A stretch of DNA of 39,285 nucleotides, from positions 1-39,285 of the forward strand of contig CAXMRH010000153.1 in NCBI GenBank assembly GCA_964196045.1, in the 5' to 3' direction. Below are positions 4,521 through 38,679 of the stretch, piece after piece. The stretch is from an uncultured Chthoniobacterales bacterium (lineage in GTDB: Bacteria; Actinomycetota; Acidimicrobiia; Acidimicrobiales; SHLQ01). The notes under the pieces are model-generated. The model was not told where the DNA came from and made no database searches. It was given only the letters and a program-made list of their open reading frames with translations. The position numbers and the translations under genes are program-made. Every line of letters begins with the position of its first letter. Position 1 is the first letter of the stretch.

Positions 4521-4610
4521 TGGCGGAGAGAGGGGGATTCGAACCCCCGGTGACCGTAAAGCCACAACGGTTTTCAAGACCGACGCAATCGTCCGCTCTG
4601 CCATCTCTCC
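4521..4610 (-). tRNA. tRNA-Ser (anticodon UGA), CCA encoded
   Basis: The reverse complement reads GGAGAGATGGCAGAGCGGACG...GGTCTTGAAAACC...GGGGGTTCGAATCCCCCTCTCTCCGCCA. It has a long variable arm and the anticodon loop CT-TGA-AA. Confidence 0.9.
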
Positions 4611-4803: not shown

Positions 4804-4820
4804 GTCGGGCTTCGCCCGAC
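4804..4820 (+). terminator. Hairpin immediately downstream of tRNA-Arg
   Basis: gtcgggc-ttc-gcccgac is a 7-bp stem lying 10 nt after the tRNA 3' end. There is no U-run. Confidence 0.35.
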
Positions 4821-4843
4821 ATCACGTCGGGAGTAATGTCTCG

Positions 4844-4905
4844 CTCGACACTTCCGGTCGAGATCCGCGGAAACCGACGTGGTCGCTACGCGAGCTTCGC
4901 TCTCG
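4844..4905 (+). repeat. Intergenic repeat 'L module', copy A
   Basis: Hairpin ctcgac-acttccg-gtcgag, followed by the palindrome tccgcgga and then aaaccgacgtggtcgctacgcgagcttcgctc. It matches the reverse complement of 27008-27066 at 47 of 49 positions, and 37313-37344 at 30 of 32. Confidence 0.8.
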
Positions 4906-4909
4906 CCAT

Positions 4910-5022
4910 GCCAGCTCCGGAGGGAGCGAGGGACGAACGACCGGGGCCCGCCTCGGGCGCGGCAGCGGAGCATCGAGGAGCGAAGCGACGGATTGCGACA
5001 GCTGGAGCGAGGAACGAGCGGG
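4910..5022 (+). repeat. Intergenic repeat 'R module', copy A, abutting the pheA stop codon
   Basis: gccagctccggagggagcgagggacgaacgaccgg...gagcgaggaacgagcggg. The first ~63 nt match the reverse complement of 26688-26800 at about 57 of 63 positions and the last 19 nt at 18 of 19. The centre is divergent. The element is bounded by the internal direct repeat GAGCGAGG(G)AACGA. Confidence 0.75.
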
Positions 5023-13197: not shown

Positions 13198-13647
13198 ATG
13201 TCTGACGCAGTTCTCACACTCATGAAATTCGGGCTACTGCTCGCGCTGTATCTCTTCTTCGCGTGGGTTTTGTGGTCAGCCTTCAACCAGCTTCGGCGGA
13301 GTCCCGTGGCGGTCGCACCAATAACGGCGCAACCACGGTTCGGGTCCACTAGCAACTCGGTGCGCGGGCAAATAGCGATTCTCGAACCGCCCGAGCTTGC
13401 CGGAGCGGTGATGACGATTGGCGATGAGTTGACGATCGGGCGAGCTGCCGCGTGCACCCTGACATTGGACGACACCTATGTCTCCCAACTACATGCCAGC
13501 ATTGTCTGGCGTGATCGCCAGTACCTCGCCGAAGACACCGGCTCGACGAACGGAACATTCGTGAACCGTGAGCGCCTCGTGACTCCTGTCGTGCTCCGGC
13601 CCGGCGACCGCGTACAAATTGGAAGTACGGTGCTTGAGTTCTCATGA
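13198..13647 (+). CDS. fhaB: FhaB/FipA-like protein (N-terminal TM plus FHA domain)
   Basis: 149 aa with a hydrophobic N-terminus (LMKFGLLLALYLFFAWVLW) and an FHA pattern (IGRAAACTLTLDDTYVSQLHA...STNGTFVN). Confidence 0.85.
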   Translation: MSDAVLTLMKFGLLLALYLFFAWVLWSAFNQLRRSPVAVAPITAQPRFGSTSNSVRGQIAILEPPELAGAVMTIGDELTIGRAAACTLTLDDTYVSQLHASIVWRDRQYLAEDTGSTNGTFVNRERLVTPVVLRPGDRVQIGSTVLEFS

Positions 13648-13699
13648 GCTGTAGGCAACCCACCACTAACGGCGTGCGACCGACGGAAGAAGCACCACA

Positions 13700-14485
13700 A
13701 TGAGCACAACCAGACTTCGCTGGGGGCTGCGTTCCGACGTCGGCATGGTGCGCCGTGTGAACCAAGACGCCGCGATGGCGAACGGCACGCTCTTTGCTGT
13801 TGCCGATGGAATGGGCGGCCACCGTGGCGGCGAGGTCGCGGCGGAGATCGCGGCGGGGCACTTCCGGATCGTCGAACAGGTTCTCACCATCGACGAACTC
13901 GAGCGAGCAGTTGTCGCTGCCAACGAGCTGATCAGGGCACGGGCCGCAGCCGATCCCGATCTGACCGGCATGGGAACAACGATCGTTGCGATGGGAGTCC
14001 TCACCGACACAGAGCCCGACAGCCCACTCCAGCTCGGGGCGGTGAACGTGGGTGATAGCCGCTTGTACCTTTACGAGGAGGGCGAACTCTCACAGGTCTC
14101 CGTCGATCACAGCCTCGTAGGCGAGCTGACACGCGCTGGCCAACTCACTGAAGAAGAAGCGGCTCGACACCCCCAACGAAACGTAGTAACGCGTGCCCTT
14201 GGGGCCGAACAGCAGGTACTCGTCGATAGTTGGACGCTCCCAGCACGACTCGGACAGCGCTACCTGATGTGCTCGGATGGGCTCGTTAACGAGGTCAGCG
14301 ACCAAGGTGTCCGCGGAGTTCTCGAAGACGTCGACGATCCCGAGGCTGCAGCGGGACGGCTGGTCGACATGGCGAATCGATCCGGGGGCCGGGACAACAT
14401 CACGGTCCTGATCCTTGACATCGTCGACAGTGCGCACTCCACCCCGGACGCTTCGCCATGCGATCCCGCCGAAACCACGAGTTAG
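13700..14485 (+). CDS. pstP: PP2C-family Ser/Thr phosphatase (PstP-like, catalytic domain only)
   Basis: Matches include FAVADGMGGHRGGEVAAE and DNITVLILD. At 261 aa it has no C-terminal TM or extracellular segment. It overlaps the next gene by 28 nt. Confidence 0.9.
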   Translation: MSTTRLRWGLRSDVGMVRRVNQDAAMANGTLFAVADGMGGHRGGEVAAEIAAGHFRIVEQVLTIDELERAVVAANELIRARAAADPDLTGMGTTIVAMGVLTDTEPDSPLQLGAVNVGDSRLYLYEEGELSQVSVDHSLVGELTRAGQLTEEEAARHPQRNVVTRALGAEQQVLVDSWTLPARLGQRYLMCSDGLVNEVSDQGVRGVLEDVDDPEAAAGRLVDMANRSGGRDNITVLILDIVDSAHSTPDASPCDPAETTS

Positions 14486-15786
14486 TACTCCTCGCCGCGG
14501 CGGCCGCGATCACCGCGGGAGCGTACGCACTAGCGAGCCTCGGACGGACAGCGTCAATTCCCGCGGACTTGTTGCCGTTCTTCGCCGTCGTACTTGGGTT
14601 GTTGCTCGTGGCACACCTGGTACTTCGCCGCTTCGCACCGCTGGCCGACCCCACGATTCTCCCAGTTGTCGCGCTATTGAACGGTCTCGGCTACGTGTTC
14701 ATCGTGCGCTTGGCGAACGACATCGGCGACGCGGAGTCCCTCCCCGGGCAGCAGGCGACGTGGACCGCAGTAGGTATCGCCGCGTTCACCGCGACCTTGA
14801 TTCTTGTGCCGAGGATCAAGGTCCTGGACAAGTACCGCTACCTGGCCGCGATCACGGGAATCGTGCTTCTGATCTTGCCGCTCATGCCGGTGATCGGGCG
14901 GGAGGTGAACTCCGCTCGGATCTGGGTTCGCTTCGGGCCGATCAACTTTCAACCGGGGGAGTTTGCGAAGATCGCCCTGGCCGTCTTCATCGCTAGCTAC
15001 TTAGCGGAGAAGCGGGAGATCATGCTCGACGCACGCTTCCGCGTTGGACCGTTCAGCCTTCCAGAAGCGAAACATCTCGCGCCGGTGATGGCTGCGTGGG
15101 GTGCGTCGCTCGTCGTAATGGTCGCCGAGAAGGACCTCGGATCCTCATTGCTGTTGTTCCTGTTGGTCATCGTGATGCTGTGGGTGGCGACTGCTCGCAC
15201 CAGCTATCTGGTAACCGGACTGGGCCTGTTCGCGATCGGAGGATGGGCCGCATCGAAACAGTTCGGTCACGTCCAAGATCGCTTCGACATCTGGCTTGAT
15301 CCGTGGGCCGACCCGGATGGGGTGGGCTTTCAACCGGTCGAGGCCAGTTTCGCTCTCGCCAACGGTGGTCTCACAGGCACCGGCCCGGGTCGCGGTGAGC
15401 CGTATCGAATTCCCGAGGTCGAAACCGACTTTATCTTCGCGGCTATTGGCGAAGAGCTGGGTTTGGTTGGCTCGGTGGGAATTCTGATCGCCTTCGTCGT
15501 CATTGTCACCTCGGGGCTACGGATTGCGATTGGCACCCGAGACGACTTCGGCAAGCTGCTCGCAGCCGCACTGTCGGCTCTGATTGGTCTACAAGCCTTC
15601 ATCATCATCGGGGGGATCATCCGAATCGTGCCGCTCACAGGAATCACGTTGCCGTTCGTGAGCTATGGAGGCAGCTCGCTTGTCGCGAATTACGTACTGG
15701 TTGCCCTGCTGTTGCGGATTTCACACGACGGCGCCACGCGCCCCGATATTGCGTTGGATCCAGCCGACGCGCTCGTGACGACATGA
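14458..15786 (+). CDS. rodA: FtsW/RodA/SpoVE-family peptidoglycan glycosyltransferase
   Basis: 442-aa polytopic ORF with PGEFAKIALAVFIASYL, TDFIFAAIGEELGLVG and GITLPFVSYGGSS. Confidence 0.9.
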   Translation: MRSRRNHELVLLAAAAAITAGAYALASLGRTASIPADLLPFFAVVLGLLLVAHLVLRRFAPLADPTILPVVALLNGLGYVFIVRLANDIGDAESLPGQQATWTAVGIAAFTATLILVPRIKVLDKYRYLAAITGIVLLILPLMPVIGREVNSARIWVRFGPINFQPGEFAKIALAVFIASYLAEKREIMLDARFRVGPFSLPEAKHLAPVMAAWGASLVVMVAEKDLGSSLLLFLLVIVMLWVATARTSYLVTGLGLFAIGGWAASKQFGHVQDRFDIWLDPWADPDGVGFQPVEASFALANGGLTGTGPGRGEPYRIPEVETDFIFAAIGEELGLVGSVGILIAFVVIVTSGLRIAIGTRDDFGKLLAAALSALIGLQAFIIIGGIIRIVPLTGITLPFVSYGGSSLVANYVLVALLLRISHDGATRPDIALDPADALVTT

Positions 15787-15787
15787 G

Positions 15788-17341
15788 TTGGAAGTCCTCG
15801 TGAACCGTCAGATCTTGCGCCTGGGCGTGGGGCTTATGGCCGCCTACCTGGTGCTGTTCGTCCAGCTCAACAGGATTCAGGTGTTCGGAGCCGAACGCCT
15901 CGACACCCATCCGTCGAACAGCCGTCCCCTCGTTGAAGATTTCGGCGCACCCCGCGGGGAAATTCGAGCCGCCGACGGGACCGTGCTCGCTCGGTCGGTC
16001 GACTTGAAAGACGGCGCCTTCGAGCGCCAGCGCGAGTATCCGCTCGGGGAGCTGTTCGCCGAAGTGACCGGGTTCCTGTCCTTTGATGCGGGTTCTGACG
16101 GCCTCGAACAGACGTGGGATGAGGAACTCCGCGGCGATCAGAACGAACTGGAAGATGGCCTTCAGGAGCTTCTCGGTGGCGAAGCGACCACAGCCGATGT
16201 GGTGACGACATTGTCCGTCGAGGTGCAAACGGCCGCTCGCGACGCCTTGGGCGAACGGCGAGGCTCGGTGGTCGTGCTCGACCCGCAGTCCGGGGCAGTC
16301 CTCGCCATGTGGTCATGGCCGACGTATGACCCGAACCCGCTCGCGTCCACCAGCAACACCATCGCGAAGTCGGCGAGACGGGCACTTCTCGCCGACCCGA
16401 TAAACCCCTTGCTTCCTCGTACGACGAGAGAGCTGTTCTTCCCCGGATCGACCTTCAAAGTTGTTACTGCGGCCGCCGCCCTCGAAACGAATGCCGTCGA
16501 ACTCGACACGCCGGTCTTCTCGATCACCGAGAGCTACACGCCACCGCTGACCTCGAATCCGCTGTCCAACTTCGGGGGTGCACAGTGTGGGGGAGCGCTA
16601 CGTGAACTCATTCGGCGGTCGTGTAATGCAGGCATGGCCCAGTTGGCTGTTGAGCTGCTCGGTGCCGATCGACTCGTCGAAACCGCGCAGAACTTCGGCT
16701 TCGGATCGGTCCCGCCCATTGGGCTCCCTGGCGTTGTGGCGTCGGTGATGCCCGATGATTTTGGTGCCGATCTGGGAACGGCGGTCGAGGTGGAACCCGA
16801 GCTCTTGGCGCAGCTGGACGAGGATCCAATGGTCATGTTGACCGACGACATGCCATCGCTCGCTCAGGCGGCGGTGGGCCAGTTCGAGGTCAAGGCGACT
16901 CCGCTTCAGATGGCGCTCGTCGTCGCTGCGATCGCCAACGATGGCGACGTCCCCAATCCACACGTGGTGCAAAGGGTCATCGATGCCGATGGCTCGATCG
17001 TGCATCAGGCGGATCTCGAAGCGTGGCGGCAGGCAATGTCACAAGAAACATCGAGAGAGCTACGTAGTGCCATGTTGGCTGTTGTGGAGTCGGGGACGGC
17101 GCAGGGCCTTGCCATCGACGGATTGGTGGTCGGCGCCAAGACCGGGACGGCGCAGATCGGCGCAGACATCGATGCCACACACGCCTGGTTGATTGCCTTC
17201 GCAGGTGAACGAATCGATCGCCCGACGGTTGTCATCGCCGTCATGATCGAGGCGGATGAAGCCGTTGGTGAACAGACCGGAGGTCGTGTGGCGGGCCCAG
17301 TCGGCCTCGAGGTGCTCGAGGCATGGAACGCGCAGCGTTGA
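15788..17341 (+). CDS. pbpA: Class B penicillin-binding protein (PbpA-like transpeptidase)
   Basis: Contains STFK (PGSTFKVV), SxN (RSCNAG) and KTGT (GAKTGTAQ). A GTG start at 15800, preceded by ggaag, is an equally plausible alternative to TTG at 15788. Confidence 0.9.
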   Translation: MEVLVNRQILRLGVGLMAAYLVLFVQLNRIQVFGAERLDTHPSNSRPLVEDFGAPRGEIRAADGTVLARSVDLKDGAFERQREYPLGELFAEVTGFLSFDAGSDGLEQTWDEELRGDQNELEDGLQELLGGEATTADVVTTLSVEVQTAARDALGERRGSVVVLDPQSGAVLAMWSWPTYDPNPLASTSNTIAKSARRALLADPINPLLPRTTRELFFPGSTFKVVTAAAALETNAVELDTPVFSITESYTPPLTSNPLSNFGGAQCGGALRELIRRSCNAGMAQLAVELLGADRLVETAQNFGFGSVPPIGLPGVVASVMPDDFGADLGTAVEVEPELLAQLDEDPMVMLTDDMPSLAQAAVGQFEVKATPLQMALVVAAIANDGDVPNPHVVQRVIDADGSIVHQADLEAWRQAMSQETSRELRSAMLAVVESGTAQGLAIDGLVVGAKTGTAQIGADIDATHAWLIAFAGERIDRPTVVIAVMIEADEAVGEQTGGRVAGPVGLEVLEAWNAQR

Positions 17342-17398
17342 TACTCATGTGCGGCTTGATCTGCGTTCTGTGGTCCTTGTCGATATCCTTTACCGGTT

Positions 17399-19531
17399 AT
17401 GTCTGACGCCCCCTATGAAGTCCTCGCTGGCCGGTACGAGCTGCACCGTCAGCTCGCGACCGGTGGCAGCGCCGACGTCTTCCTCGCACGAGACCAGCTT
17501 CTGAACCGTCCGGTCGCAGTGAAGGTGCTCAACGCCACACTGTCCGAGGACCAGGATTTCGTGGAGCGCCTCCGCCGAGAGGCCCAGCTCGTCGCAAGCC
17601 TCAACCACCAGAACATCGTCGGGGTGTTCGATCAGGGTGAACAAGATGGCGCCCCGTTCATCGTCATGGAGTACGTGGACGGGCGCAGTCTCGCGGACAT
17701 CTTGCGTAGCGAGGGCCGCTTGCACCCGGATCGTGCAGCCACGATCGCCGTTGATGTGGCCGCCGCCCTCGACGCTGCCCATCGACAGGGCATGGTCCAC
17801 ATGGACGTCAAGCCGGGCAACGTGCTCATCACTTCCGAAGGCCAGGTGAAGCTTGCAGACTTTGGCATAGCGAAGGCGCTGAACGAGGGCTCCGAGACGG
17901 ACCTGACCGCCGAAGGCGGAACGGTGATGGGCACGGCCACGTATCTGTCCCCCGAGCAGGCCCAAGGACAGAAGGTCGGGCCGCGTAGCGATGTGTACTC
18001 GCTGGCGGTTGTGCTCTACGAGATGATGACCGGTCGTCCGCCATTCATCGGCGACACGCCAGTAGAAATCGCACGCAAACACGTCGAGGAAGCTCCACAA
18101 GCGCCACATCGTCTGGGGGTCGAGATAGCGCAGTCGTTGGAAGCGATCACACTGAAAGGCTTGGCCAAGAGTCCGGTTAATCGGTACCCGTCGGTGCGCG
18201 ATTTCGCAGCCGACCTGAAGCGGTATCTGGCCGGTGCTCACAGCCTGACCGACAACGCCCCGTCGGGCACCAAGCCTGCAGCGGCCGCCGCTGCACCCCC
18301 GATTGTTCGAGCTGTGACCGGACGGTCCACCGCACCGGAGCAGAAGGACCAAACGGTTCTCATACCCGCGACGCCGGGCGCCGCGCCTGTGGCACGACCC
18401 CCCCAAGGTGGTCTACCGCGCCAAGCCGCAGCTCCAGCCCGAGCACCGAGGAAGCCAGATCCCGCCGACCTCGAGCGTCGCCCGGTCGTTGTACGAAGCG
18501 ACGACACGTGGAAGCGCAATGTCTTGTTTTTCGTTGCGTTGTGCATCTTGTTACTTCTGCTCGGCTTCTTGGCCCGAGCGTTCGTCGACGTGTTACGTGA
18601 CGACGACAGCACCATCGACGAAACCCCGACAACGGGCGAGACCGTCACACTTCCGAATTTCACGAACTTTGATCGTGATCAGGCAATCACGTTGATCGAG
18701 AATCAAGGCCTCGTACCAGAGATCGAGTTCGCTCCTAACAACGACGTCGCCGATGGCCGTGTCTTCCGCCAGGATCCTGTGGCGGGGGCGATCGTCGAGC
18801 TTGGTTCCACGGTCAAGATCACTGTCAGCGAAGCAGAGGGCAAGGTCGAAGTGCCGACGCTCGTCGACCTTACGCGAGAAGAGGCGGAACGAACGCTCCG
18901 CCGACTTGGGTTCACGCCCGATGTGCAGGAGGTCGACAACGACTTCTTCGGACCTGGCTCGGTTATCAGCCAGGAGCCACTCCCTGGAGTAAGTGCGGAT
19001 CGTGGGTCGGTCGTCTTCCTTCAAGTGTCGCTCGGGTTCTCGGAACGAACGGTTCCTGATCTTGCAGGGCAAACATTGAACGAAGCTCTTGCCAAGTTGT
19101 TCGATCTGGATTTCCGAATCACCCAGGTCGAGGAACCAGATCCTGAGGTCGAGGAAGGTCTTGTGCTTCGGACAGAACCGGCTGCGGGTTCGTTGTTGCG
19201 GGGCCGTGAGATCGTGACGGTGTATGTGTCGACAGGGGTCGCCCGCGTGCCCGTGCCTTCGGTCATCGGGTTGTTGGCAGATTCCGCTCGCCAACAGCTG
19301 ACCGCGAGTGGCTTCGAGGTGCAGATCGACTTCATCGAGGTAGAGGATCCCGCCGACATCAACAAGGTGATCGACCAGACACCCCCGGCGAATATCGAGC
19401 TGCGCGAAGGGGAGTCCGTGCGGATCATCGTTGGTCTGGAACCGCCGCCCGAAGAGACGACGACTACAACGACCGAGGCCGCCACGACGACCACGACGTC
19501 GACCACCACCACGACCGCCGCGCCCGGCTGA
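17399..19531 (+). CDS. pknB: Ser/Thr protein kinase PknB with four PASTA repeats
   Basis: Hanks kinase motifs are present (VAVKVL, HMDVKPGNVL, DFGIA, SPEQA). A TM (LFFVALCILLLLLGFLA) follows, then four PASTA-like units of about 65 aa and a poly-Thr C-terminal tail. Confidence 0.95.
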   Translation: MSDAPYEVLAGRYELHRQLATGGSADVFLARDQLLNRPVAVKVLNATLSEDQDFVERLRREAQLVASLNHQNIVGVFDQGEQDGAPFIVMEYVDGRSLADILRSEGRLHPDRAATIAVDVAAALDAAHRQGMVHMDVKPGNVLITSEGQVKLADFGIAKALNEGSETDLTAEGGTVMGTATYLSPEQAQGQKVGPRSDVYSLAVVLYEMMTGRPPFIGDTPVEIARKHVEEAPQAPHRLGVEIAQSLEAITLKGLAKSPVNRYPSVRDFAADLKRYLAGAHSLTDNAPSGTKPAAAAAAPPIVRAVTGRSTAPEQKDQTVLIPATPGAAPVARPPQGGLPRQAAAPARAPRKPDPADLERRPVVVRSDDTWKRNVLFFVALCILLLLLGFLARAFVDVLRDDDSTIDETPTTGETVTLPNFTNFDRDQAITLIENQGLVPEIEFAPNNDVADGRVFRQDPVAGAIVELGSTVKITVSEAEGKVEVPTLVDLTREEAERTLRRLGFTPDVQEVDNDFFGPGSVISQEPLPGVSADRGSVVFLQVSLGFSERTVPDLAGQTLNEALAKLFDLDFRITQVEEPDPEVEEGLVLRTEPAAGSLLRGREIVTVYVSTGVARVPVPSVIGLLADSARQQLTASGFEVQIDFIEVEDPADINKVIDQTPPANIELREGESVRIIVGLEPPPEETTTTTTEAATTTTTSTTTTTAAPG

Positions 19532-19554
19532 CGAACGAGCGAGTTTCGATACCG

Positions 19555-20130
19555 CTAGACGGTTCGGGCGAGGAAGTTCTGGAGCAAGTCGTGACCTGAT
19601 GCGGTCAGGATCGATTCTGGATGAAATTGCACGCCCTCGATGTCGTGCTCGGCGTGGCGAAGGCCCATGACCAGGCCGTCACTCGATTCCGCAGTGATCT
19701 CGAGGTCGTCGGGCACCGAGTCGCGCTCGACTATGAGCGAGTGATAACGGGTTGCTTCGAGCGGATTGGGAAGGCCGACGAATACTCCAGAATTGGTGTG
19801 GCTGATCATCGACGTCTTGCCATGCATAACCTCGGGCGCACGGCTGACAGTGCCGCCGTAGACCTCTCCGATGCACTGCATGCCAAGACACACACCGAAA
19901 ACGGGCCGTTTCCCCGGTGAATCCGCTATCAGAGCGCTTGAAATACCAGCTTCGCTCGGGGTCCCTGGCCCAGGGCTGATCAACACACCATCAGGATTCA
20001 TAGCATCGACGCCAGCGAGGTCGATCTCGTCATGGCGTTTCACAATGGGGTTCGCGCCGAGCTGGCCGAGGTACTGGACCAGGTTGTAGACGAACGAGTC
20101 GTAGTTGTCGATCACCAAGATGTCGCTCAT
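19555..20130 (-). CDS. trpG: Glutamine amidotransferase component II of anthranilate / aminodeoxychorismate synthase
   Basis: 191 aa with GVCLGMQ (nucleophile Cys) and VQFHPES. Its position next to pknB and crgA is as in other actinobacteria. Confidence 0.9.
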   Translation of the reverse strand: MSDILVIDNYDSFVYNLVQYLGQLGANPIVKRHDEIDLAGVDAMNPDGVLISPGPGTPSEAGISSALIADSPGKRPVFGVCLGMQCIGEVYGGTVSRAPEVMHGKTSMISHTNSGVFVGLPNPLEATRYHSLIVERDSVPDDLEITAESSDGLVMGLRHAEHDIEGVQFHPESILTASGHDLLQNFLARTV

Positions 20131-20216
20131 GAACCCACAACGCTAGCCAACTCATCTCACTTGCCACCGCGTTCACCGACGCAGGGCTTAAACCCAAAAC
20201 GCACTAGACTCGAAGG

Positions 20217-20498
20217 ATGTCGAGTCCGAAGAAGCGCCGGGTGCAAGGCGGGCGCGTCACCCCCAAGGGGACGCAGCCGCACAACGCAAAGTCTGTCGAG
20301 ACGCTGCATCATGTCAGCGATGAGCCGAGTGCTCCGTGGGTGACGTGGGTTCTCTTCGGATTACTCGCCCTAGGCATGCTCGTGATCTTCTTGAACTACA
20401 CGAAGCTGGTTCCTGGCGGCGAAACCCACAACGGGTTCACGCTGCTCGGCCTCGGGTTTATTCTTGGCGGGATTATCACCGCCACTCGCTTGCGGTAG
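20217..20498 (+). CDS. crgA: Cell division protein CrgA
   Basis: 93 aa with a basic N-terminus (SSPKKRRVQGGRVTPKG) and two TM helices (WVTWVLFGLLALGMLVIFLNY, LLGLGFILGGIITATRL). It is in the conserved syntenic position. Confidence 0.85.
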   Translation: MSSPKKRRVQGGRVTPKGTQPHNAKSVETLHHVSDEPSAPWVTWVLFGLLALGMLVIFLNYTKLVPGGETHNGFTLLGLGFILGGIITATRLR

Positions 20499-22700: not shown

Positions 22701-22773
22701 GGGGCCTTAGCTCAGTTGGTAGAGCGCTTGCTTTGCAAGCAAGATGTCGGGAGTTCGATTCTCCCAGGCTCCA
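22701..22773 (+). tRNA. tRNA-Ala (anticodon UGC), CCA not encoded
   Basis: GGGGCCTTAGCTCAGTTGGTAGAGCGCTTGCTTTGCAAGCAAGATGTCGGGAGTTCGATTCTCCCAGGCTCCA. The G3:U70 identity pair is present and the anticodon loop is TT-TGC-AA. Confidence 0.92.
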
Positions 22774-22809
22774 CGCCGTTCGTCGGTCGCATAGCGACCT
22801 CCTCACTCC

Positions 22810-22923
22810 CTGCCTTTCGGCGCTGGGGCGCCTAAAGGCGCCGTTCGCTTCGCTCTGAAAACGCTCCTGCCGTTCGGCGCTGGGGCGCCTAAAGGCGCCG
22901 TTCGCTTCGTTCTGAAAACGCTC
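22810..22923. repeat. Two tandem copies of a 57-bp unit, each with a GGCGCC-taaa-GGCGCC hairpin
   Basis: Copy 1 (22810-22866) and copy 2 (22867-22923) differ at 2 positions. The flanks (cctcactccct at 22801, cgttcgtccc at 22934-22943) share short blocks with the R module at 4910-5022 and 26688-26800. Confidence 0.85.
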
Positions 22924-26687: not shown

Positions 26688-26800
26688 CCCGCTTGTTCCT
26701 CGCTCCCGGCAATCGCACATTCGCCGCCGGCTCGGTGTGCTCTGCGGCTGCGCCCGAGGCGGAGCCCGGTCGTTCGTCCCTCACTCCCTCCGGAGCTGGC
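26688..26800 (-). repeat. Intergenic repeat 'R module', copy B
   Basis: The reverse complement aligns with 4910-5022: both ends are conserved and the centre is divergent. It ends about 60 nt upstream of the SDR start codon. Confidence 0.75.
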
Positions 26801-26854
26801 GTCCTTCCGTGCGTATAGGGGAGGCTGTTGGTCTCGCCGAGCAACGTACGGCGT

Positions 26855-26871
26855 AAGGGGTCAGGCCCCTT
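26855..26871. repeat. Hairpin aagggg-tcagg-cccctt, sister copy of the 26922-26938 hairpin
   Basis: The near-identical 17-mer aaggggtcagRcccctt occurs twice, 67 nt apart, within the ~200-bp segment that separates the L and R modules at this locus. Confidence 0.6.
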
Positions 26872-26917
26872 TGTCCGAAATCGTTGAATTTCGAAGGGTT
26901 TAGCTGTCGTCTCGGGC

Positions 26918-26938
26918 AAAAAAGGGGTCAGACCCCTT
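26918..26938 (-). terminator. Intrinsic terminator, probably for prfC
   Basis: On the minus strand, aaggggt-ctg-acccctt is followed directly by tttttg. It lies about 140 nt downstream of the prfC stop. Confidence 0.6.
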
Positions 26939-27007
26939 CACCAGTGGGTGCGATGTTTCAGCCCGCCAGGGATGGAACTCGGTCAGCGAACGTAGTGAGC
27001 GGCCGGG

Positions 27008-27066
27008 AGCGGAGCTCGCGTAGCGACCATGTCGGTTTCCGCGGATCTCGACCGGCAGCGTCGAGA
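27008..27066 (-). repeat. Intergenic repeat 'L module', copy B, in the prfC 3' region
   Basis: The minus strand reads tctcgac-gctgccg-gtcgaga then tccgcggaaaccgacatggtcgctacgcgagctccgctc. It has the same stem as copy A with a different loop. It starts 14 nt after the prfC stop and lies in the same orientation as prfC. Confidence 0.8.
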
Positions 27067-27079
27067 ACAAGACAGGTCG

Positions 27080-33381: not shown

Positions 33382-33741
33382 CTACTTGGCGAGACGGTCG
33401 CGGATCTCGGTGAGGAGATCGATTTCAGATGGTCCACCCACTGCTTCTTCCTCAGCTTCGTTCGTCTTGTTGTATGCCTTCACGAGGAAGAACATCACGA
33501 TTGCCACGAGCATGAAGCCGACGACCGTTGTGATCCATCGTCCGACAAGGATGTCTGCATCGCCGAGACCGATGCTGATGCTGTCGAAGTTCGGCTCGCC
33601 GACGATGGCGGCGATGATCGGCATGATGATGTTGTCGATGAACCCCGTCACGACGGGCGCAAATGCGAGCGCCAAGATCAGGCCTACCGCCGTTTCGAAG
33701 ATGTTGCCGTTGTTGATGAAGTCCTTGAATTCTTGAATCAC
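33382..33741 (-). CDS. mscL: Large-conductance mechanosensitive channel
   Basis: 119 aa. MIQEFKDFINNGNIFETAVGLILALAF...IDNIIMPIIAAIVG matches the canonical MscL N-terminus and TM1. Confidence 0.92.
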   Translation of the reverse strand: MIQEFKDFINNGNIFETAVGLILALAFAPVVTGFIDNIIMPIIAAIVGEPNFDSISIGLGDADILVGRWITTVVGFMLVAIVMFFLVKAYNKTNEAEEEAVGGPSEIDLLTEIRDRLAK

Positions 33742-36018: not shown

Positions 36019-37313
36019 CTATACCGGAATTTCCGTTCCATCGGGGCGCAAGGTGTGCCAGGACCCATAATGGTCTCGATAGATCGTGAACCCCTTTTGT
36101 TTCCAACGATTATGTTTCCCGCACAGCGGCGCCCCGTTGCCAGGGTTGGTTCTGCCTTCTCTCGAGTGTTCGAGAACGTGGTCGTTCTCGCACTTCGATA
36201 CCGGCGTGCAACAGCCAGGCCACACACAATGGGCATGAGATAACTTCACGGCGAGTCGAGCGCCGCCGGTGAACCGTCGAGCGGCCCCTTGGTCGGTGAC
36301 CATGCTCTTGGCATCGATCAACACCCGCCGAATGCGGCCCACGATCGACATGTCGAACATCTCGGTCGCGTCGACGGGTATTCCGTCGATAATCTGGCAC
36401 CCGATTGTGTCGGTCTCGATGCAATCGCGTGGGTCGCTGGGAGCTGTCGGGGCGCGAGCGTCGCCCTTGAACTCACCGTCGTACTCGGCGATGTCATCCT
36501 CGTCTTCGAGGTCGCTGCTGTCGTCTTCTTCGCCGAAGAACTTCTCGGCCATGTCTTCGAAGGTGTCGGCGTCCCACATGATGTCGTGCACGAAGTCGGC
36601 AGGCACTGCGCTGTTGAGGTTGGCCGCAGCATCGATGAAGCTCTGCCAAAGTGCATCGGCTCGACGCTTTTGGATCGTGCGGGGCAGGTGCTCGCTCGTC
36701 GCCGCATCGCCATGTTCTGCCCGTGCCTTCTCCCAGTCGGCGATCGTCTCGGCGTCGAGGCAACGATCGAACACCTCGAAGATCTGGAGGCCCTGCATCG
36801 ACGCGAAGCTCGCCACGAAGTCCTACGTGGTGTCGAAGTTCTGGGTCATGCGGACGTTGCGGTCTTCGTGTGCCCGCTCGTTTGGCGGCGTGGGTTCGCA
36901 TGCACCAAGCTCAGCGACCTGATCTGGTCGGTGCCCAACGCTCCCGACCGATAGGCCATGCCAATGTCTGGGCACGTGTCGGTCAACCTTGCTACCCGAT
37001 CCGGGGCAGCAGCTTCGCCGTTGCTCAGCTTGGCGTGATGTCGCACTATTGCCGTGGAGTGGCCGTCACCGAGGTGGAAGCGGCACTCCTCGATGGCCGA
37101 CATCACCTCGACGGCAGCGTGATCGGCGAGCCGTCGAACCTGCTCTACCTCTTGAATCAGAGTGATCGAATCACGAGCGTTCGCTGGTTCGATTCCGGCT
37201 GATTGCAGCGCAGCGAAACCAGCGACAATCTGCTCGATCGCCACCCCAATCTCTCTGTTCGCTACCCGTGACCCCATACGAACAAGTGTACGATTAGTGT
37301 ATGACAACGACAT
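36019..37313 (-). pseudogene. DUF222 / HNH endonuclease gene (13E12-repeat type) broken by a frameshift and an in-frame TAG
   Basis: The N-terminal ORF 36846-37313 has a DUF222-like pattern (IQEVEQVRRLADHAAVEVM...GALGTDQIRSLSLVHANPR). The C-terminal ORF 36019-36816 carries the HNH motif (CVWPGCCTPVSKCENDHVLEHSREGRTNPGNGAPLCGKHNRWK). The two are in different frames. Hand translation of the junction shows a third-frame bridge ending in TAG at about 36825. Confidence 0.65.
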
Positions 37314-37384
37314 CTCGACACTTCCGGTCGAGAACCGCGGAAACCGGCATGCTCGATCGCCTCCGGCTCACTCTCCTCTTCGCT
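37313..37384 (+). repeat. Intergenic repeat 'L module', copy D
   Basis: tctcgac-acttccg-gtcgaga then accgcggaaaccgg. It matches copy A at 30 of 32 positions and then diverges. It starts at the initiation codon of the DUF222 pseudogene, on the opposite strand. Confidence 0.7.
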
Positions 37385-37597
37385 TTGGATGCTCTGCGGA
37401 TACCCATCGGGTTGTCCATCGACTCGAGCCGGTGGCGGTTCTCCCAAGCCCACGCCAGCGATTCACCCAGGGCTTCCTTCGCGCGATCCAAACCCAAGCC
37501 GCCCAAAAACGTTCGCCAGAGTTATGGCCGAGCTTCGCCAAGCAGGGTCTCCGTATCGACGTTCATACCGACTAAACGTCTAGCGCTGTGAAACCCG

Positions 37598-38419
37598 CTA
37601 CGTCGGAATGAGTGTGTTTGCGAAGATCTGCCAGGCCAGCACGCTCTTGGCCACGAAGCTGAGCATGATGTAGACCCGCTCGCCGTGGAGGTAGTCGGCC
37701 CAGCGGCCCTTGCCTCGGTACTGCAGCCATTGGTTGATGGCGAATGTGTTGAAGAAGAAGAAGATCGACGCGATGATGCCGTAGACAAATCCGGGAGGGC
37801 CCTCTCCTCCTTCTTGGCTCACGTTGAACCAGAGCGGAACGAGGATGGCCAGCCAGGGGCCGATGCCGGCTACGCAGCCCATCCAGAACGGTGACCACCA
37901 CACGGTTTTGCGCTTGACGTCGTCGGTCGAGTTGACCATTTCCATGATCCAGCCGAAAAAGATCATTGAGACGTTGGCGAAGGCCAGTCCGATGAGTGCA
38001 GCCAGGTCGGTGATTCCCGTCGTCGCTGCGATCAACACCATCATCAGCGTGGACGACAGCGCGTATTCGATCCAGCGGAAGCGATTGCGCCCATGGCGGA
38101 GCTCGCTCTTGTACTTCGGGAACACGACGAGTGCGATCAGGAAGTGGAAGAGGGCCGACAGCAACGAGAACGCAGCAACCCCAGCGGCCAGCGGAATCCC
38201 GAAGAACTCGTTGAGGGCTCCATCTGCGAGGGGGGTTCCAGGAGGTCCGCTGATGTTGAACCCGCTCACGGGGAGCTCAAAGTCGAGATCGCCCAGCACG
38301 ATCATCGCTAGGCCGGTCACGAGGTGAAGGACACCAGCTCCCAAGTTCAGCTTGCGGAGGCGGCTTGCATTGTCGTCGGTGAGCTCGACGACCTTTCGGT
38401 CGAAGTCGATGTTTGGCAT
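37598..38419 (-). CDS. Heliorhodopsin
   Basis: Seven-TM protein with blocks matching my recollection of heliorhodopsin 48C12: NISGPPGT, LSALFHF, FRWIEYALSSTLMMVLIA (counterion Glu), NVSMIFFGW, PFWMGCVAGIGPW, PGFVYGIIASIFFFFNTFAINQWLQYRGKGRWADYLHGERVYIMLSFVAKSVLAWQIF. The Schiff-base Lys codon is at 37646-37648. The start is taken at ATG 38419 (MPNIDFD); the ORF opens at GTG 38512. Confidence 0.85.
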   Translation of the reverse strand: MPNIDFDRKVVELTDDNASRLRKLNLGAGVLHLVTGLAMIVLGDLDFELPVSGFNISGPPGTPLADGALNEFFGIPLAAGVAAFSLLSALFHFLIALVVFPKYKSELRHGRNRFRWIEYALSSTLMMVLIAATTGITDLAALIGLAFANVSMIFFGWIMEMVNSTDDVKRKTVWWSPFWMGCVAGIGPWLAILVPLWFNVSQEGGEGPPGFVYGIIASIFFFFNTFAINQWLQYRGKGRWADYLHGERVYIMLSFVAKSVLAWQIFANTLIPT

Positions 38420-38591
38420 GGGTGTGGTTCTAGACGCCAGCGCCACAGGATGAATGATCAAGGGGGCCCGGATCCCAGCTGGACCTGAACTGAGGCCGAC
38501 TCGTCGAGCCACTGCAACACTGTCGCTCGCTTGTAACGTGGTGGGCTGCTTCGATGCTGAGCTGGCGCGTGCTGGCGAAGGGTCGTTGTCT

Positions 38592-38679
38592 GGAGGAGTG
38601 CGAGAGCGGCCGAATCGGCACGCTTGGAAAGCGTGTGACCTTTACGGGTCCGTGGGTTCGAATCCCACCTCCTCCGCCA
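38592..38679 (+). tRNA. tRNA-Ser (anticodon GGA), CCA encoded
   Basis: GGAGGAGTGCGAGAGCGGCCGAATCGGCACGCTTGGAAAGCGTGTGACCTTTACGGGTCCGTGGGTTCGAATCCCACCTCCTCCGCCA. It has a long variable arm and the anticodon loop TT-GGA-AA. Confidence 0.9.

What the first reader, a model, noticed from the sequence alone, without database searches (positions are those of the whole stretch)
4844..5022. Bipartite L+R intergenic repeat: contiguous here, split by about 200 bp at a second locus
At 4844-5022 an L module (hairpin plus the tccgcgga palindrome plus a conserved tail) is followed 4 nt later by an R module. At 26688-27066, in the opposite orientation, the same L (47 of 49 identical) and R (about 57 of 63 at one end, 18 of 19 at the other) recur in the same order. 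There they are separated by roughly 200 bp that carries two copies of a different hairpin. This suggests either a composite element that received an insertion or independently mobile modules that co-locate. R has conserved ends and a divergent centre and is bounded by a direct repeat GAGCGAGG(G)AACGA. No transposase is associated. I do not recognise the sequence as any named REP, MITE or RNA family.
Basis: seen in the sequence. Interest (0 to 1): 0.6.

Follow-up and report, generated by a model that had tools for sequence, protein, structure and literature searches.

The report
Mosaic hairpin repeats of marine Acidimicrobiia
The two "L+R" loci are real copies of a previously undescribed family of short, hairpin-forming, multi-copy intergenic repeats in uncultured marine-sediment Acidimicrobiia; this is an ordinary kind of genome feature (like REP/BIME or MIRU repeats), though one module is unusually well conserved.

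Summary
L (62 nt, 92%) and R (63 nt, 90%, plus an 18/20 end) recur at 4844-5022(+) and 27066-26688(-). A third L lies at 37314-37379(+).

The flanks are unrelated core genes: tRNA-Arg/pheA, prfC/SDR and heliorhodopsin. No transposase, integrase or cas gene lies anywhere in the window. Rfam, plasmid, phage and literature searches found nothing.

L has about 50 copies in 29 contigs from at least 5 Acidimicrobiia MAG species and sediment metagenomes. It is a 6-7 bp hairpin whose arms covary (5 of 7 pairs compensatory). The loop ACTTCCG and 3' tail ATCCGCGGAAACC are almost invariant. It often occurs in 56-70 nt tandems and often starts 1-22 nt after a stop codon.

R is a separate structured module of about 135 nt with two subtypes. 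In 7 of 7 cases it lies downstream of L in the same orientation, at spacings of 4 to about 680 nt. One copy sits in frame inside a gene.

In sediment metagenomes L and R are about 40-180 times deeper than their single-copy flanks. A related strain lacks the 368-nt block. Padam5 keeps only the L core at the same site.

Best reading: a REP/BIME-like mosaic repeat family mobilised in trans. The enzyme is unknown, and an HUH/RAYT-like one is only inferred.

The parts
4844..4904 (+). L unit, copy 1. It consists of 5' arm CTCGAC 4844-4849, loop ACTTCCG 4850-4856, 3' arm GTCGAG 4857-4862, invariant tail ATCCGCGGAAACC 4863-4875, GACGTGG 4876-4882 and the GC-rich tail T1 (TCGCTACGCGAGCTTCGCTCTCG...) to about 4904.
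   Evidence: CM hit 4834-4889, 66.8 bits. Boundaries come from metagenome loose ends at 4844, 4885 and 4902/4904.
4910..5022 (+). R module, copy 1 (subtype A, 5'-truncated). It consists of Q GCCAGCTCC 4910-4918, E1 GGAGCGAGGGACGAACGAC 4923-4941, hairpin CGCCTCGGGCG 4949-4959, central stem GCATC 4970-4974 / GATTGC 4991-4996 and E2 GGAGCGAGGAACGAGCGGG 5004-5022.
   Evidence: (nhmmer E 4e-30).
27004..27066 (-). L unit, copy 2. The arm TCTCGAC starts at 27066, the loop is GCTGCCG (two changes from consensus), the tail ATCCGCGGAAACC spans 27046-27034, and T1 runs to about 27004. It starts 15 nt after the prfC stop codon.
   Evidence: 70.5 bits.
26819..27003 (-). Spacer between L and R in copy 2. 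It is built of other multi-copy pieces, including two GGGGYCTGACCCC(T-run) terminator-like hairpins (26924-26936 and 26857-26869).
   Evidence: (depth 105-565 against about 9 in the flank).
26688..26818 (-). R module, copy 2 (subtype B, full length). It consists of P TATACGCAC, Q CGCCAGCTCC, E1, hairpin CGCCTCGGGCG, central stem GCACA/TGTGC and E2 GGAGCGAGGAACAAGCGGG. It ends 60 nt upstream of the SDR start codon.
   Evidence: (E 5e-30).
37314..37379 (+). L unit, copy 3. It has consensus hairpin and loop, tail AACCGCGGAAACC, and the alternative tail T2 (GATCGCCTCCGGCTCACTCTCC). No R follows. It is antisense to both neighbouring genes.
   Evidence: 69.7 bits. Unit boundaries 37314 and 37377-37379, and depth 440-2200 against about 8, come.
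4806..4833 (+). Possible decayed L-like hairpin (GTCGGG-CTTCG-CCCGAC-ATCACG...) between tRNA-Arg and L copy 1. Alternatively it is simply the tRNA terminator hairpin.
   Evidence: Read from the sequence. It uses the same arm pair GTCGGG/CCCGAC as L subtypes in L022 and L029. Depth is about 5 times the flank. The CM did not detect it.

Best explanation
L and R are two modules of a family of short, non-coding, structured, multi-copy intergenic repeats. The family is specific to Acidimicrobiia of marine and sediment habitats. In organisation it resembles the REP/BIME mosaics of enterobacteria and the MIRU minisatellites of mycobacteria.

L is the 'palindromic unit', 59-66 nt long. It has a short 5' motif (T/A)AC-NN, a 6-7 bp hairpin whose arms are free to change as long as they pair, an invariant loop ACTTCCG, an invariant 3' tail ATCCGCGGAAACC-NA-CATG, and a variable GC-rich second hairpin.

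R is a distinct module of about 135 nt. Its parts are GTATACGCAC, CGCCAGCTCC, two GGAGCGAGGRACGA motifs, a GCGCC-loop-GGCGC hairpin and a central stem.

The modules are copied and inserted in trans, singly, in head-to-tail tandems and in mixed clusters. They go into the same permissive intergenic spots, preferentially immediately 3' of stop codons. This produces L-4nt-R at one site and L-200nt-R at another.

What is shown: multiplicity, dispersal, modularity, hairpin selection, L-to-R polarity, strain-level presence/absence, and absence of any local mobility gene.

What is inferred: the constant loop and tail, together with covarying arms, mark the recognition site of a trans-acting protein. 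This protein most plausibly acts on the folded single strand, as an HUH/Y1 (RAYT- or IS200/IS605-TnpA-like) enzyme does. Order-wide invariance would then reflect co-inheritance with that enzyme.
For: Multi-copy and dispersed:
- The 20-nt L core hits 13 contigs of at least 5 Acidimicrobiia MAG species, and the metagenome-collection scan returned 21 stretches, about two-thirds of which carry true hairpin-bearing L copies; the rest are hairpin-less chance matches.
- The CM finds about 50 strong copies in 29 loci.
- Metagenome depth over L is 730-2360 and over R 380-1330, against 7-13 on the unique flanks.

Structure is under selection:
- In the L hairpin, 5 of 7 pairs show compensatory changes, 24 cells in all, and 0 of 500 shuffles reach this.
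- At least 9 different arm pairs were seen, including a swapped one.
- R subtypes A and B differ in the centre by paired changes.

Modularity:
- L occurs alone in most loci.
- L forms tandems with 56-70 nt period.
- Inverted L pairs occur in L010, L036 and L039.
- One R lies alone and in frame in a HerA/DUF87 gene, and its relatives carry R-derived peptides such as GARNER, GARDER and PVYAP.

Polarity: R or E-units lie downstream of L and co-oriented in 7 of 7 loci.

Variable occupancy:
- An X8 strain contig replaces 26704-27071 with 17 nt.
- Padam5 keeps only the L core at the syntenic prfC-SDR site.
- L032 and L009 differ by about 215 nt of hairpin modules next to the same L.

Site bias: 10 of 14 L copies downstream of a co-directional gene start no more than 22 nt after its stop, against about 1.9 expected (P about 1e-7).

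No mobility gene: none was found in the 39-kb window or next to L in the other loci inspected.

No orientation rule relative to flanking transcription: 6 sense and 5 antisense in tandem-gene contexts.
Against: - The mobilisation mechanism is therefore unproven.
- L lacks the GTAG/GTRG 5' tetranucleotide typical of REPs.
- Exact-core copy number per MAG is low (1-7; 2 in the 4.87-Mb Padam5 contig). That is less than classical REP families.
- Two L sites are retained at orthologous positions across genomes, with 94-100% identity of the core while neighbouring intergenic DNA has diverged. This fits a host function at least as well as selfish spread.
- L and R sequences occur in a metatranscriptome assembly.
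- No clean empty site with precise excision boundaries was recovered. The X8 allele is a rearranged form, not a simple empty site.
Confidence: 0.6

Rival explanations
1. L (with or without R) is a cis-acting RNA element. It would be a structured 3'-UTR or intercistronic motif, a hairpin or an H-type pseudoknot (loop UUCCG pairing with CGGAA of the tail). A conserved RNA-binding protein or RNase would recognise it. It would act on mRNA 3'-end stability or processing, or on translation termination, since it so often sits right after a stop codon.
For: - The loop and tail are invariant while the arms covary, which is the classic signature of a protein-recognised RNA hairpin.
- 10 of 14 co-directional copies start no more than 22 nt after the stop codon.
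- L is retained at orthologous sites in different genomes.
- L and R are present in metatranscriptome contigs at depths like tRNA-containing contigs.
- R also shows compensatory changes.
- From general knowledge: E. coli REPs within about 15 nt of a stop codon modulate translation.
Against: - About half of the copies between same-direction genes are antisense to those genes, including window copy 3.
- Some copies lie in divergent promoter regions (L009, L012, L015).
- No conserved promoter precedes L.
- The pseudoknot pairs never covary, and loop variants (ACTGCCG, ACTCCCG) are not compensated.
- Whole-region folding is not more stable than shuffles (z = -0.6 and -0.3).
- There is no Rfam family.
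- The metatranscriptome contigs carry no strand information and may include DNA.
Confidence: 0.2
2. L-to-R is one bipartite non-autonomous transposon of the IS200/IS605-derived (PATE) or MITE type. L would be the left end and R the right end, with a variable, dispensable interior. Solo L units would be remnants.
For: - L-to-R order and orientation are constant in 7 of 7 loci, with interiors from 4 to about 680 nt.
- Several further L-tail to R junction variants exist in the metagenomes.
- The 5' (T/A)AC next to a subterminal hairpin recalls the TTAC target abutting the IS608 left end (general knowledge).
- There are no target-site duplications, as in that family.
- The whole 368-nt L-to-R block is the unit missing in the X8 strain.
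Against: - R has no L-like hairpin (the CM finds none in R), and there are no terminal inverted repeats between L and R.
- Solo L and L tandems far outnumber L-R pairs.
- R occurs alone inside a gene.
- Padam5 keeps L without R at the same site.
- The X8 allele retains an L-like 5' half of a different subtype plus the last 16 nt of R, so it is not a clean excision.
- No tnpA or tnpB was found in any locus.
Confidence: 0.1
3. L is a double-stranded DNA site, either the operator of a regulon or an architectural or partition-type site, bound by a dimeric protein. Candidate recognition features are the palindromes TCTCGAC-N7-GTCGAGA, TCCGCGGA and CATG.
For: - L lies in very short divergent promoter regions. 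In Padam5, L fills 35 of about 80 nt between rplU and an ABC ATPase gene.
- Orientation independence fits a DNA site.
- L is conserved at orthologous sites.
Against: - Half-sites of an operator should be conserved, not covary. Here at least 9 arm pairs exist, while the asymmetric loop and tail are the invariant parts.
- Neighbouring genes have no common function.
- Tandem arrays, the position after stop codons and clustering with other repeats are not operator-like.
Confidence: 0.07
4. The two loci are a chance similarity or a recent local segmental duplication.
For: None beyond the two loci lying in the same window.
Against: - E-values are 1e-16 to 1e-19.
- The flanks are unrelated.
- Boundaries are sharp.
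- Dozens of copies exist in other genomes.
Confidence: 0.01

Closest known systems
REP / BIME (repetitive extragenic palindromes and bacterial interspersed mosaic elements of Enterobacteria and Pseudomonas; REPIN-RAYT systems)
   Same: - Short hairpin units of 20-40 nt, multi-copy and strictly extragenic among core genes.
- They occur singly, in tandem, in inverted pairs and mixed with other short motifs into mosaics.
- Only pairing, not sequence, is conserved in the arms.
- No mobility gene lies nearby.
- They are often just downstream of stop codons.
   Different: - There is no GTAG/GTRG 5' tetranucleotide. The invariant parts are the 7-nt loop and a 13-nt 3' tail.
- Apparent copy number per genome is lower.
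- The host is Actinomycetota (Acidimicrobiia).
- Association with a RAYT was not tested.
- The core is conserved across genera rather than being genus- or species-specific.
MIRU (mycobacterial interspersed repetitive units, 40-100 bp intergenic minisatellites)
   Same: - Same phylum.
- Units of 56-70 nt in short head-to-tail arrays, scattered in intergenic regions of operons and abutting stop codons.
- Unit number varies between strains.
   Different: - MIRUs are oriented with the flanking genes and carry small ORFs overlapping stop and start codons. L has no conserved ORF: tail lengths differ by non-multiples of 3.
- L occurs in both orientations.
- L has a covarying hairpin.
IS200/IS605-derived PATEs and other MITEs
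   Same: - Non-autonomous.
- A subterminal hairpin sits next to a short conserved 5' tetranucleotide-like motif.
- No target-site duplication.
- The interior between two conserved end modules is variable.
   Different: - There are no matching hairpins at both ends and no TIRs.
- Solo L predominates.
- No tnpA or tnpB was seen.
RPE (Rickettsia palindromic elements)
   Same: An R copy sits in frame inside a conserved protein gene (HerA/DUF87 linker), and relatives retain R-derived peptide segments.
   Different: Only a single such case was seen. R is otherwise intergenic, and the sequences are unrelated.
CRISPR repeats (type I, hairpin followed by ...GAAAC)
   Same: A unit of about 34 nt with a stable hairpin and a 3' tail ending GGAAAC(C), with tandem period 56-70 nt.
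   Different: - The 'spacers' between tandem L cores are themselves homologous tails.
- Arrays have at most 2-3 units.
- No cas genes are present.
- No locus has many core matches.

Membership tests
REP/REPIN-RAYT | Short (about 20-40 nt) imperfect palindrome able to form a hairpin | tested here: met
   6-7 bp stem with a 7-nt loop. 5 of 7 pairs are compensatory and 0 of 500 shuffles reach this.
REP/REPIN-RAYT | Many dispersed extragenic copies per genome | tested here: inconclusive
   There are 3 copies in 39 kb here, and 1-7 exact-core hits per MAG. Metagenome depth is 40-180 times the flanks but is summed over species. No complete genome could be censused.
REP/REPIN-RAYT | Conserved GTAG/GTRG tetranucleotide 5' of the hairpin | tested here: not met
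   The 5' motif is (T/A)AC followed by 2 nt. The invariants lie in the loop and the 3' tail.
REP/REPIN-RAYT | Inverted doublets (REPINs) | tested here: inconclusive
   Inverted L pairs occur in L010, L036 and L039. The window copies are singletons, and direct tandems are commoner.
REP/REPIN-RAYT | A single-copy RAYT (Y1 transposase, PF01797) gene flanked by the REPs | not testable with these tools
   Only 8-kb loci around matches could be fetched. No such gene is in the window or in the loci inspected.
BIME | Mosaic combination of palindromic units with other conserved short motifs in fixed relative orders | tested here: met
   The recurrent order is L - tail - GCCTSAGGC hairpin - GTGCGTATAC / GTATACGCAC - CGCCAGCTCC - E - hairpin - E. 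R is downstream and co-oriented in 7 of 7 loci. This is a likeness of organisation only; the sequences are unrelated to E. coli BIMEs.
MITE | Terminal inverted repeats and target-site duplication | tested here: not met
   There is no inverted repeat between the L and R ends and no duplication at the flanks of copies 1 and 2. The GAGCGAGG..ACGA pair is internal to R.
IS200/IS605-type PATE | Similar subterminal hairpins at both ends, and insertion 3' of a fixed tetra- or pentanucleotide | tested here: not met
   R lacks an L-type hairpin. The 5' motif is degenerate (TTAC, TAAC, CTAC, CAAC, CGAC...).
CRISPR array | Regular array of identical repeats separated by unique spacers; cas genes | tested here: not met
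   There are at most 2-3 units. The inter-core segments are homologous tails. No cas genes are present.
Any Rfam 15 RNA family | Match to a covariance model | tested here: not met
   Nothing at the gathering threshold, and only noise at E up to 10 over both loci.
MIRU | Unit carries a small ORF overlapping flanking stop and start codons and is co-oriented with the operon | tested here: not met
   Tail variants differ by 5 nt and other non-multiples of 3. Orientation is 6 sense and 5 antisense.

The most novel reading that the evidence does not exclude
L may not be selfish DNA but an order-wide conserved cis-element. It would be a hairpin, possibly an H-type pseudoknot using loop UUCCG and tail CGGAA, with an invariant loop and tail read by a conserved host protein. 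That protein could be a domesticated HUH/RAYT-like enzyme or an RNA-binding protein. L would be kept at orthologous positions directly after stop codons (prfC) or in core promoter regions (rplU), where it would control mRNA 3' ends, translation termination or local DNA transactions. The tandem and mosaic copies would then be secondary amplification.
Probability: 0.15. Interest if true: 0.7.

Novelty: new member of a known kind. Interest (0 to 1): 0.4.

Why it matters
REP/BIME-type repeats are well studied in Proteobacteria but hardly at all in Actinomycetota outside mycobacteria, and not in Acidimicrobiia. Acidimicrobiia are abundant, mostly uncultured marine and sediment bacteria.

This family offers several practical uses:
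- It gives a defined covariance model (hairpin plus invariant loop and tail).
- It provides a handle for finding the enzyme that recognises it.
- It explains assembly breaks and strain-level variation in these MAGs.
- It warns annotators that some 'linker' peptides (GARNER/GARDER) are repeat-derived.

If the invariant loop and tail turn out to serve the host, L would be a new conserved cis-element.

Tried and rejected
- Rfam: gathering threshold on the whole window, and E up to 10 on both loci. Only tRNAs, SRP RNA and noise were found.
- Viral-contig scan for the L core: 0 hits.
- Plasmid and phage BLAST of L+R: no match.
- Literature search for the tail sequence and for Acidimicrobiia REPs: 0 papers.
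- Exact-protein look-up of the two flanking genes, to fetch the source contig: not on record.
- RNA runs for the organism: none. One metatranscriptome holds L and R from other loci, but as undirected contigs.
- Pseudoknot (loop UUCCG with tail CGGAA): geometrically plausible, but all pairs are invariant and loop variants are uncompensated, so it is neither supported nor refuted.
- Long-range pairing of the L tail (GAGCTTCGCTC) with the R centre (GAGCGAAGC), predicted by MFE in copy 1: not maintained in L006, L038 or subtype B. The fold is no better than shuffles. Rejected.
- Small-ORF reading of CATGG plus tail: tails differ by non-multiples of 3. Rejected.
- The ORFs overlapping copy 3 (37294-37506(-) and 37162-37575(+)) have no Pfam hit and implausible sequence.
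- The L038 ORF between L and R was not resolved.
- Similarity of the 57-nt tandem repeat at 22809-22922 to R: only about 2.5-3.6 SD above shuffles, so it is left as a remark.
- Seven metagenome-collection loci (L021, L023, L030, L033, L034, L037, L040) lack a convincing hairpin and count as chance matches: six have none, and L021 has only a possible 5-bp one. They fit the roughly 5 expected by chance.
- No clean empty site was found for copies 1 or 3.

Full report
**1. Checking the observation.**

The window has about 61% G+C. The repeat finder reports two inverted-orientation matches. BLAST E-values are 6e-19 and 1.5e-16.

In copy 1, 4 nt separate L and R. In copy 2, 203 nt separate them, and this stretch contains GGGGTCTGACCCC and GGGGCCTGACCCC hairpins.

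A third L lies at 37314-37379(+) without R.

The flanking genes are unrelated:
- Copy 1: tRNA-Arg(ACG) and the 3' end of prephenate dehydratase.
- Copy 2: the 3' end of prfC (RF3) and the start of an SDR gene.
- Copy 3: the 3' end of a heliorhodopsin gene and an unknown ORF.

**2. What L is.**

Rfam gives nothing. A scan of one genome per species with the 20-nt core CGGTCGAGANCCGCGGAAACC returned 13 true loci from at least 5 Acidimicrobiia/Acidimicrobiales MAG species, plus 6 chance hits in other phyla. A metagenome scan that left the 3' arm free returned 14 more true loci.

All copies share the same plan:
- a 5' motif (T/A)AC followed by 2 nt,
- a 5-7 bp stem,
- the loop ACTTCCG,
- the tail ATCCGCGGAAACC,
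- N-A-CATG(G/T),
- a variable GC-rich tail that usually holds a second hairpin.

The stem arms differ between copies but stay complementary. The pairs seen are CTCGAC/GTCGAG, GTCGAG/CTCGAC, CTCGG/CCGAG, CTGGG/CCCAG, GTCGGG/CCCGAC, GTCGAT/ATCGAC, TTGGC/GCCAA, CTCGGG/CCCGAG and TTCGG/CCGAA. On a 39-sequence alignment, 5 of 7 stem pairs show double changes (24 cells), and 0 of 500 shuffles reach this.

The loop UUCCG could pair with CGGAA of the tail to give an H-type pseudoknot. Those positions never covary, and loop variants are uncompensated.

A covariance model built from the alignment finds about 50 strong copies in 29 loci, and only the three known ones in the window.

**3. What R is.**

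An HMM built from three copies finds six R copies:
- the two in the window,
- L006,
- L035,
- two in L038.

Full-length R starts with TGTATACGCAC-N8-CGCCAGCTCC. Copy 1 in the window is truncated at 4910. This agrees with the metagenome loose-end consensus ...CCTGTATACGCACAAACAGAC immediately before 4910.

R contains two GGAGCGAGG(G/A)ACGA(A/G)CG motifs (E1 and E2), a GCGCC-loop-GGCGC hairpin and a central stem. These are present in every copy, so they are part of the element.

Two subtypes differ in the centre: A (copy 1, L006, L038) and B (copy 2, L035). The differences are compensated, GCATC...GATTGC against GCACA...TGTGC, and 8 of 23 predicted pairs show double changes.

R-like units made of an E motif plus a hairpin also follow L in two other loci. 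L015 has one E. L031 has three 70-nt tandem units.

**4. The relation of L to R.**

In all seven loci where R or E-units occur near L, they lie downstream of L on the same strand. The distances are 4, about 25, about 70, about 70, about 145, about 200 and about 680 nt. Further L-tail to R junction variants exist elsewhere in the metagenomes. Polarity is therefore not random.

The modules are nevertheless separable:
- Most L loci have no R.
- One R copy sits alone and in frame in the linker of a HerA/DUF87 ATPase gene (L038 2861-2994). Its closest homologues carry R-derived peptide pieces of varying length: GARNER from GGAGCGAGGAACGAGCGG, GARDER, and P(V/I)YAP from GTATACGCAC.

Other recurrent modules fill the space between L and R. 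These are a GCCTSAGGC hairpin, the half-palindromes GTGCGTATAC and GTATACGCAC, and GGGGYCTGACCCC terminator-like hairpins. In L010 the cluster is closed by an inverted L of another subtype.

**5. Abundance and variability.**

The DNA of the window is found in marine-sediment metagenomes. Laying their contigs on the window gives depth 7-13 on unique flanks, 730-2360 on L and 380-1330 on R. Sharp loose-end boundaries appear at 4844, 4885, 4902/4904, 4910, 5022, 37314 and 37377-37379. Many 'goes back 51-59' joints appear, which are tandem L units. These depths sum over all community members, so per-genome copy number remains unknown. Exact-core counts per MAG are 1-7.

In run X8, a contig about 94% identical on both sides joins 26703 to 27072 through 17 nt, GGCAGTCCCGACGTATA. 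The 368-nt L-spacer-R block is therefore absent. It is replaced by what looks like the 5' half of an L of the GTCGGG subtype, fused to the last 16 nt of R.

The Padam5 genome (L014) is syntenic with window 23-31 kb (prfC 90% and SDR 95% amino-acid identity). It has only the 34-nt L core after prfC, differing at 2 loop positions, with no tail, spacer or R.

A second orthologous L sits between rplU and an ABC ATPase gene in Padam5 (L009) and in L032. L032 carries about 215 extra nt of hairpin modules.

**6. Position and orientation.**

Of 14 L clusters downstream of a co-directional gene, 10 begin no more than 22 nt after its stop codon. About 1.9 are expected under random placement (P about 1e-7, a rough model). 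In six of them the TAA stop coincides with the element's TAAC motif.

Between same-direction genes, L is sense in 6 loci and antisense in 5. The three window copies are +, - and +, on a stretch with monotonic cumulative GC skew.

No transposase, integrase or cas gene occurs in the fully annotated window. The window is a core region with fhaB-pstP-rodA-pbpA-pknB, crgA, prfC, xseAB, mscL and SRP RNA. None occurs next to L in the other loci inspected.

**7. Transcription.**

No RNA run of this organism is available. One sediment metatranscriptome assembly contains two contigs with L and one with R, from other loci, at depths like tRNA-bearing contigs. These contigs carry no strand information and DNA carry-over is possible. 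This shows presence only.

**8. Interpretation.**

The data fit a family of short structured interspersed repeats organised as mosaics, as REP/BIME elements are. The units can be tandemly amplified, as MIRUs are.

The combination of free but paired arms with an invariant asymmetric loop and 3' tail indicates recognition of the folded single strand by one protein. The lack of any rule relative to flanking transcription, the in-ORF R copy, the tandem and inverted arrangements and the strain-level differences all favour action at the DNA level.

I therefore take trans-mobilisation by an HUH/Y1-type enzyme as the most likely mechanism. This step is inferred, not shown. Membership in the REP-RAYT family proper is not claimed, because the GTAG signature is absent and the RAYT could not be sought.

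The main rival is a cis-acting RNA element. It is kept at 0.2 because of the stop-codon proximity and the orthologous retention of L.

The single bipartite transposon reading is weakened by solo L, solo R and the Padam5 allele. The operator reading is contradicted by arm covariation.

**9. Novelty.**

No match was found in Rfam, plasmids, phages or the searchable literature. This is a new family of a known kind of element, with one unusual trait: order-wide invariance of the loop and tail.

Noticed in passing
window 22809-22922 (+), just after tRNA-Ala 22701-22774: Two tandem 57-nt units, 96% identical, each with a GGCGCC-TAAA-GGCGCC hairpin and CCGTTCGCTTCGCTC. The reverse complement of that motif, GAGCGAAGCGAACGG, resembles the E motif of R. 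Overall similarity to R is only marginal (2.5-3.6 SD above shuffles).
   Followed up: partly
window 26857-26869 and 26924-26936; L003 12-24 and 112-124; L032 1767-1906; L039 591-603: GGGGYCWGACCCC hairpins flanked by A- and T-runs look like bidirectional terminators. They form their own dispersed multi-copy family (depth 10-60 times the flanks) and tend to sit next to L.
   Followed up: partly
L038 2861-2994 and proteins P0001-P0007: An R copy is translated in frame in the linker of a HerA/DUF87 ATPase. Close homologues keep pieces such as GARNER, GARDER and P(V/I)YAP, while more distant ones have a shorter unrelated linker.
   Followed up: yes
window 26704-27071 compared with the run X8 contig: A strain about 94% identical has 17 nt (GGCAGTCCCGACGTATA on the + strand) in place of the 368-nt L-spacer-R block. 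The 17 nt resemble the 5' half of an L of another arm subtype. X17 carries yet another allele beyond 27073.
   Followed up: partly
window 37598-38512 (-): Heliorhodopsin gene (PF18761, E 1e-89). The about 170 nt between it and L copy 3 (37410-37580) are missing or divergent in the related strains of X5, X8 and X17.
   Followed up: no
window 33535-33609 (+) and 38592-38679 (+): ARAGORN calls tRNA-Leu(GAG) and tRNA-Ser(GGA) here, but Rfam at the gathering threshold lists neither. The first lies inside the mscL ORF (33382-33741) and is probably false. The second resembles tRNA-Ser 4521-4610 and may be real.
   Followed up: no
window 13198-20498: The conserved actinobacterial cluster FHA protein - PP2C phosphatase - FtsW/RodA - PBP - PknB(PASTA) - (pabA/trpG) - crgA is present. 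It is usually origin-proximal, so the window is core chromosome.
   Followed up: no
L015 (JBLIMK010000021.1) and P0028: These are records labelled Verrucomicrobiales. L015 carries a perfect L, and P0028 is an Acidimicrobiia-type HerA protein. The contigs are probably misbinned or mislabelled.
   Followed up: no
window 4806-4833 (+): The hairpin after tRNA-Arg, GTCGGG-CTTCG-CCCGAC-ATCACG, uses the same arms as one L subtype. It may be a decayed L forming a tandem with copy 1. Its depth is about 5 times the flank.
   Followed up: partly
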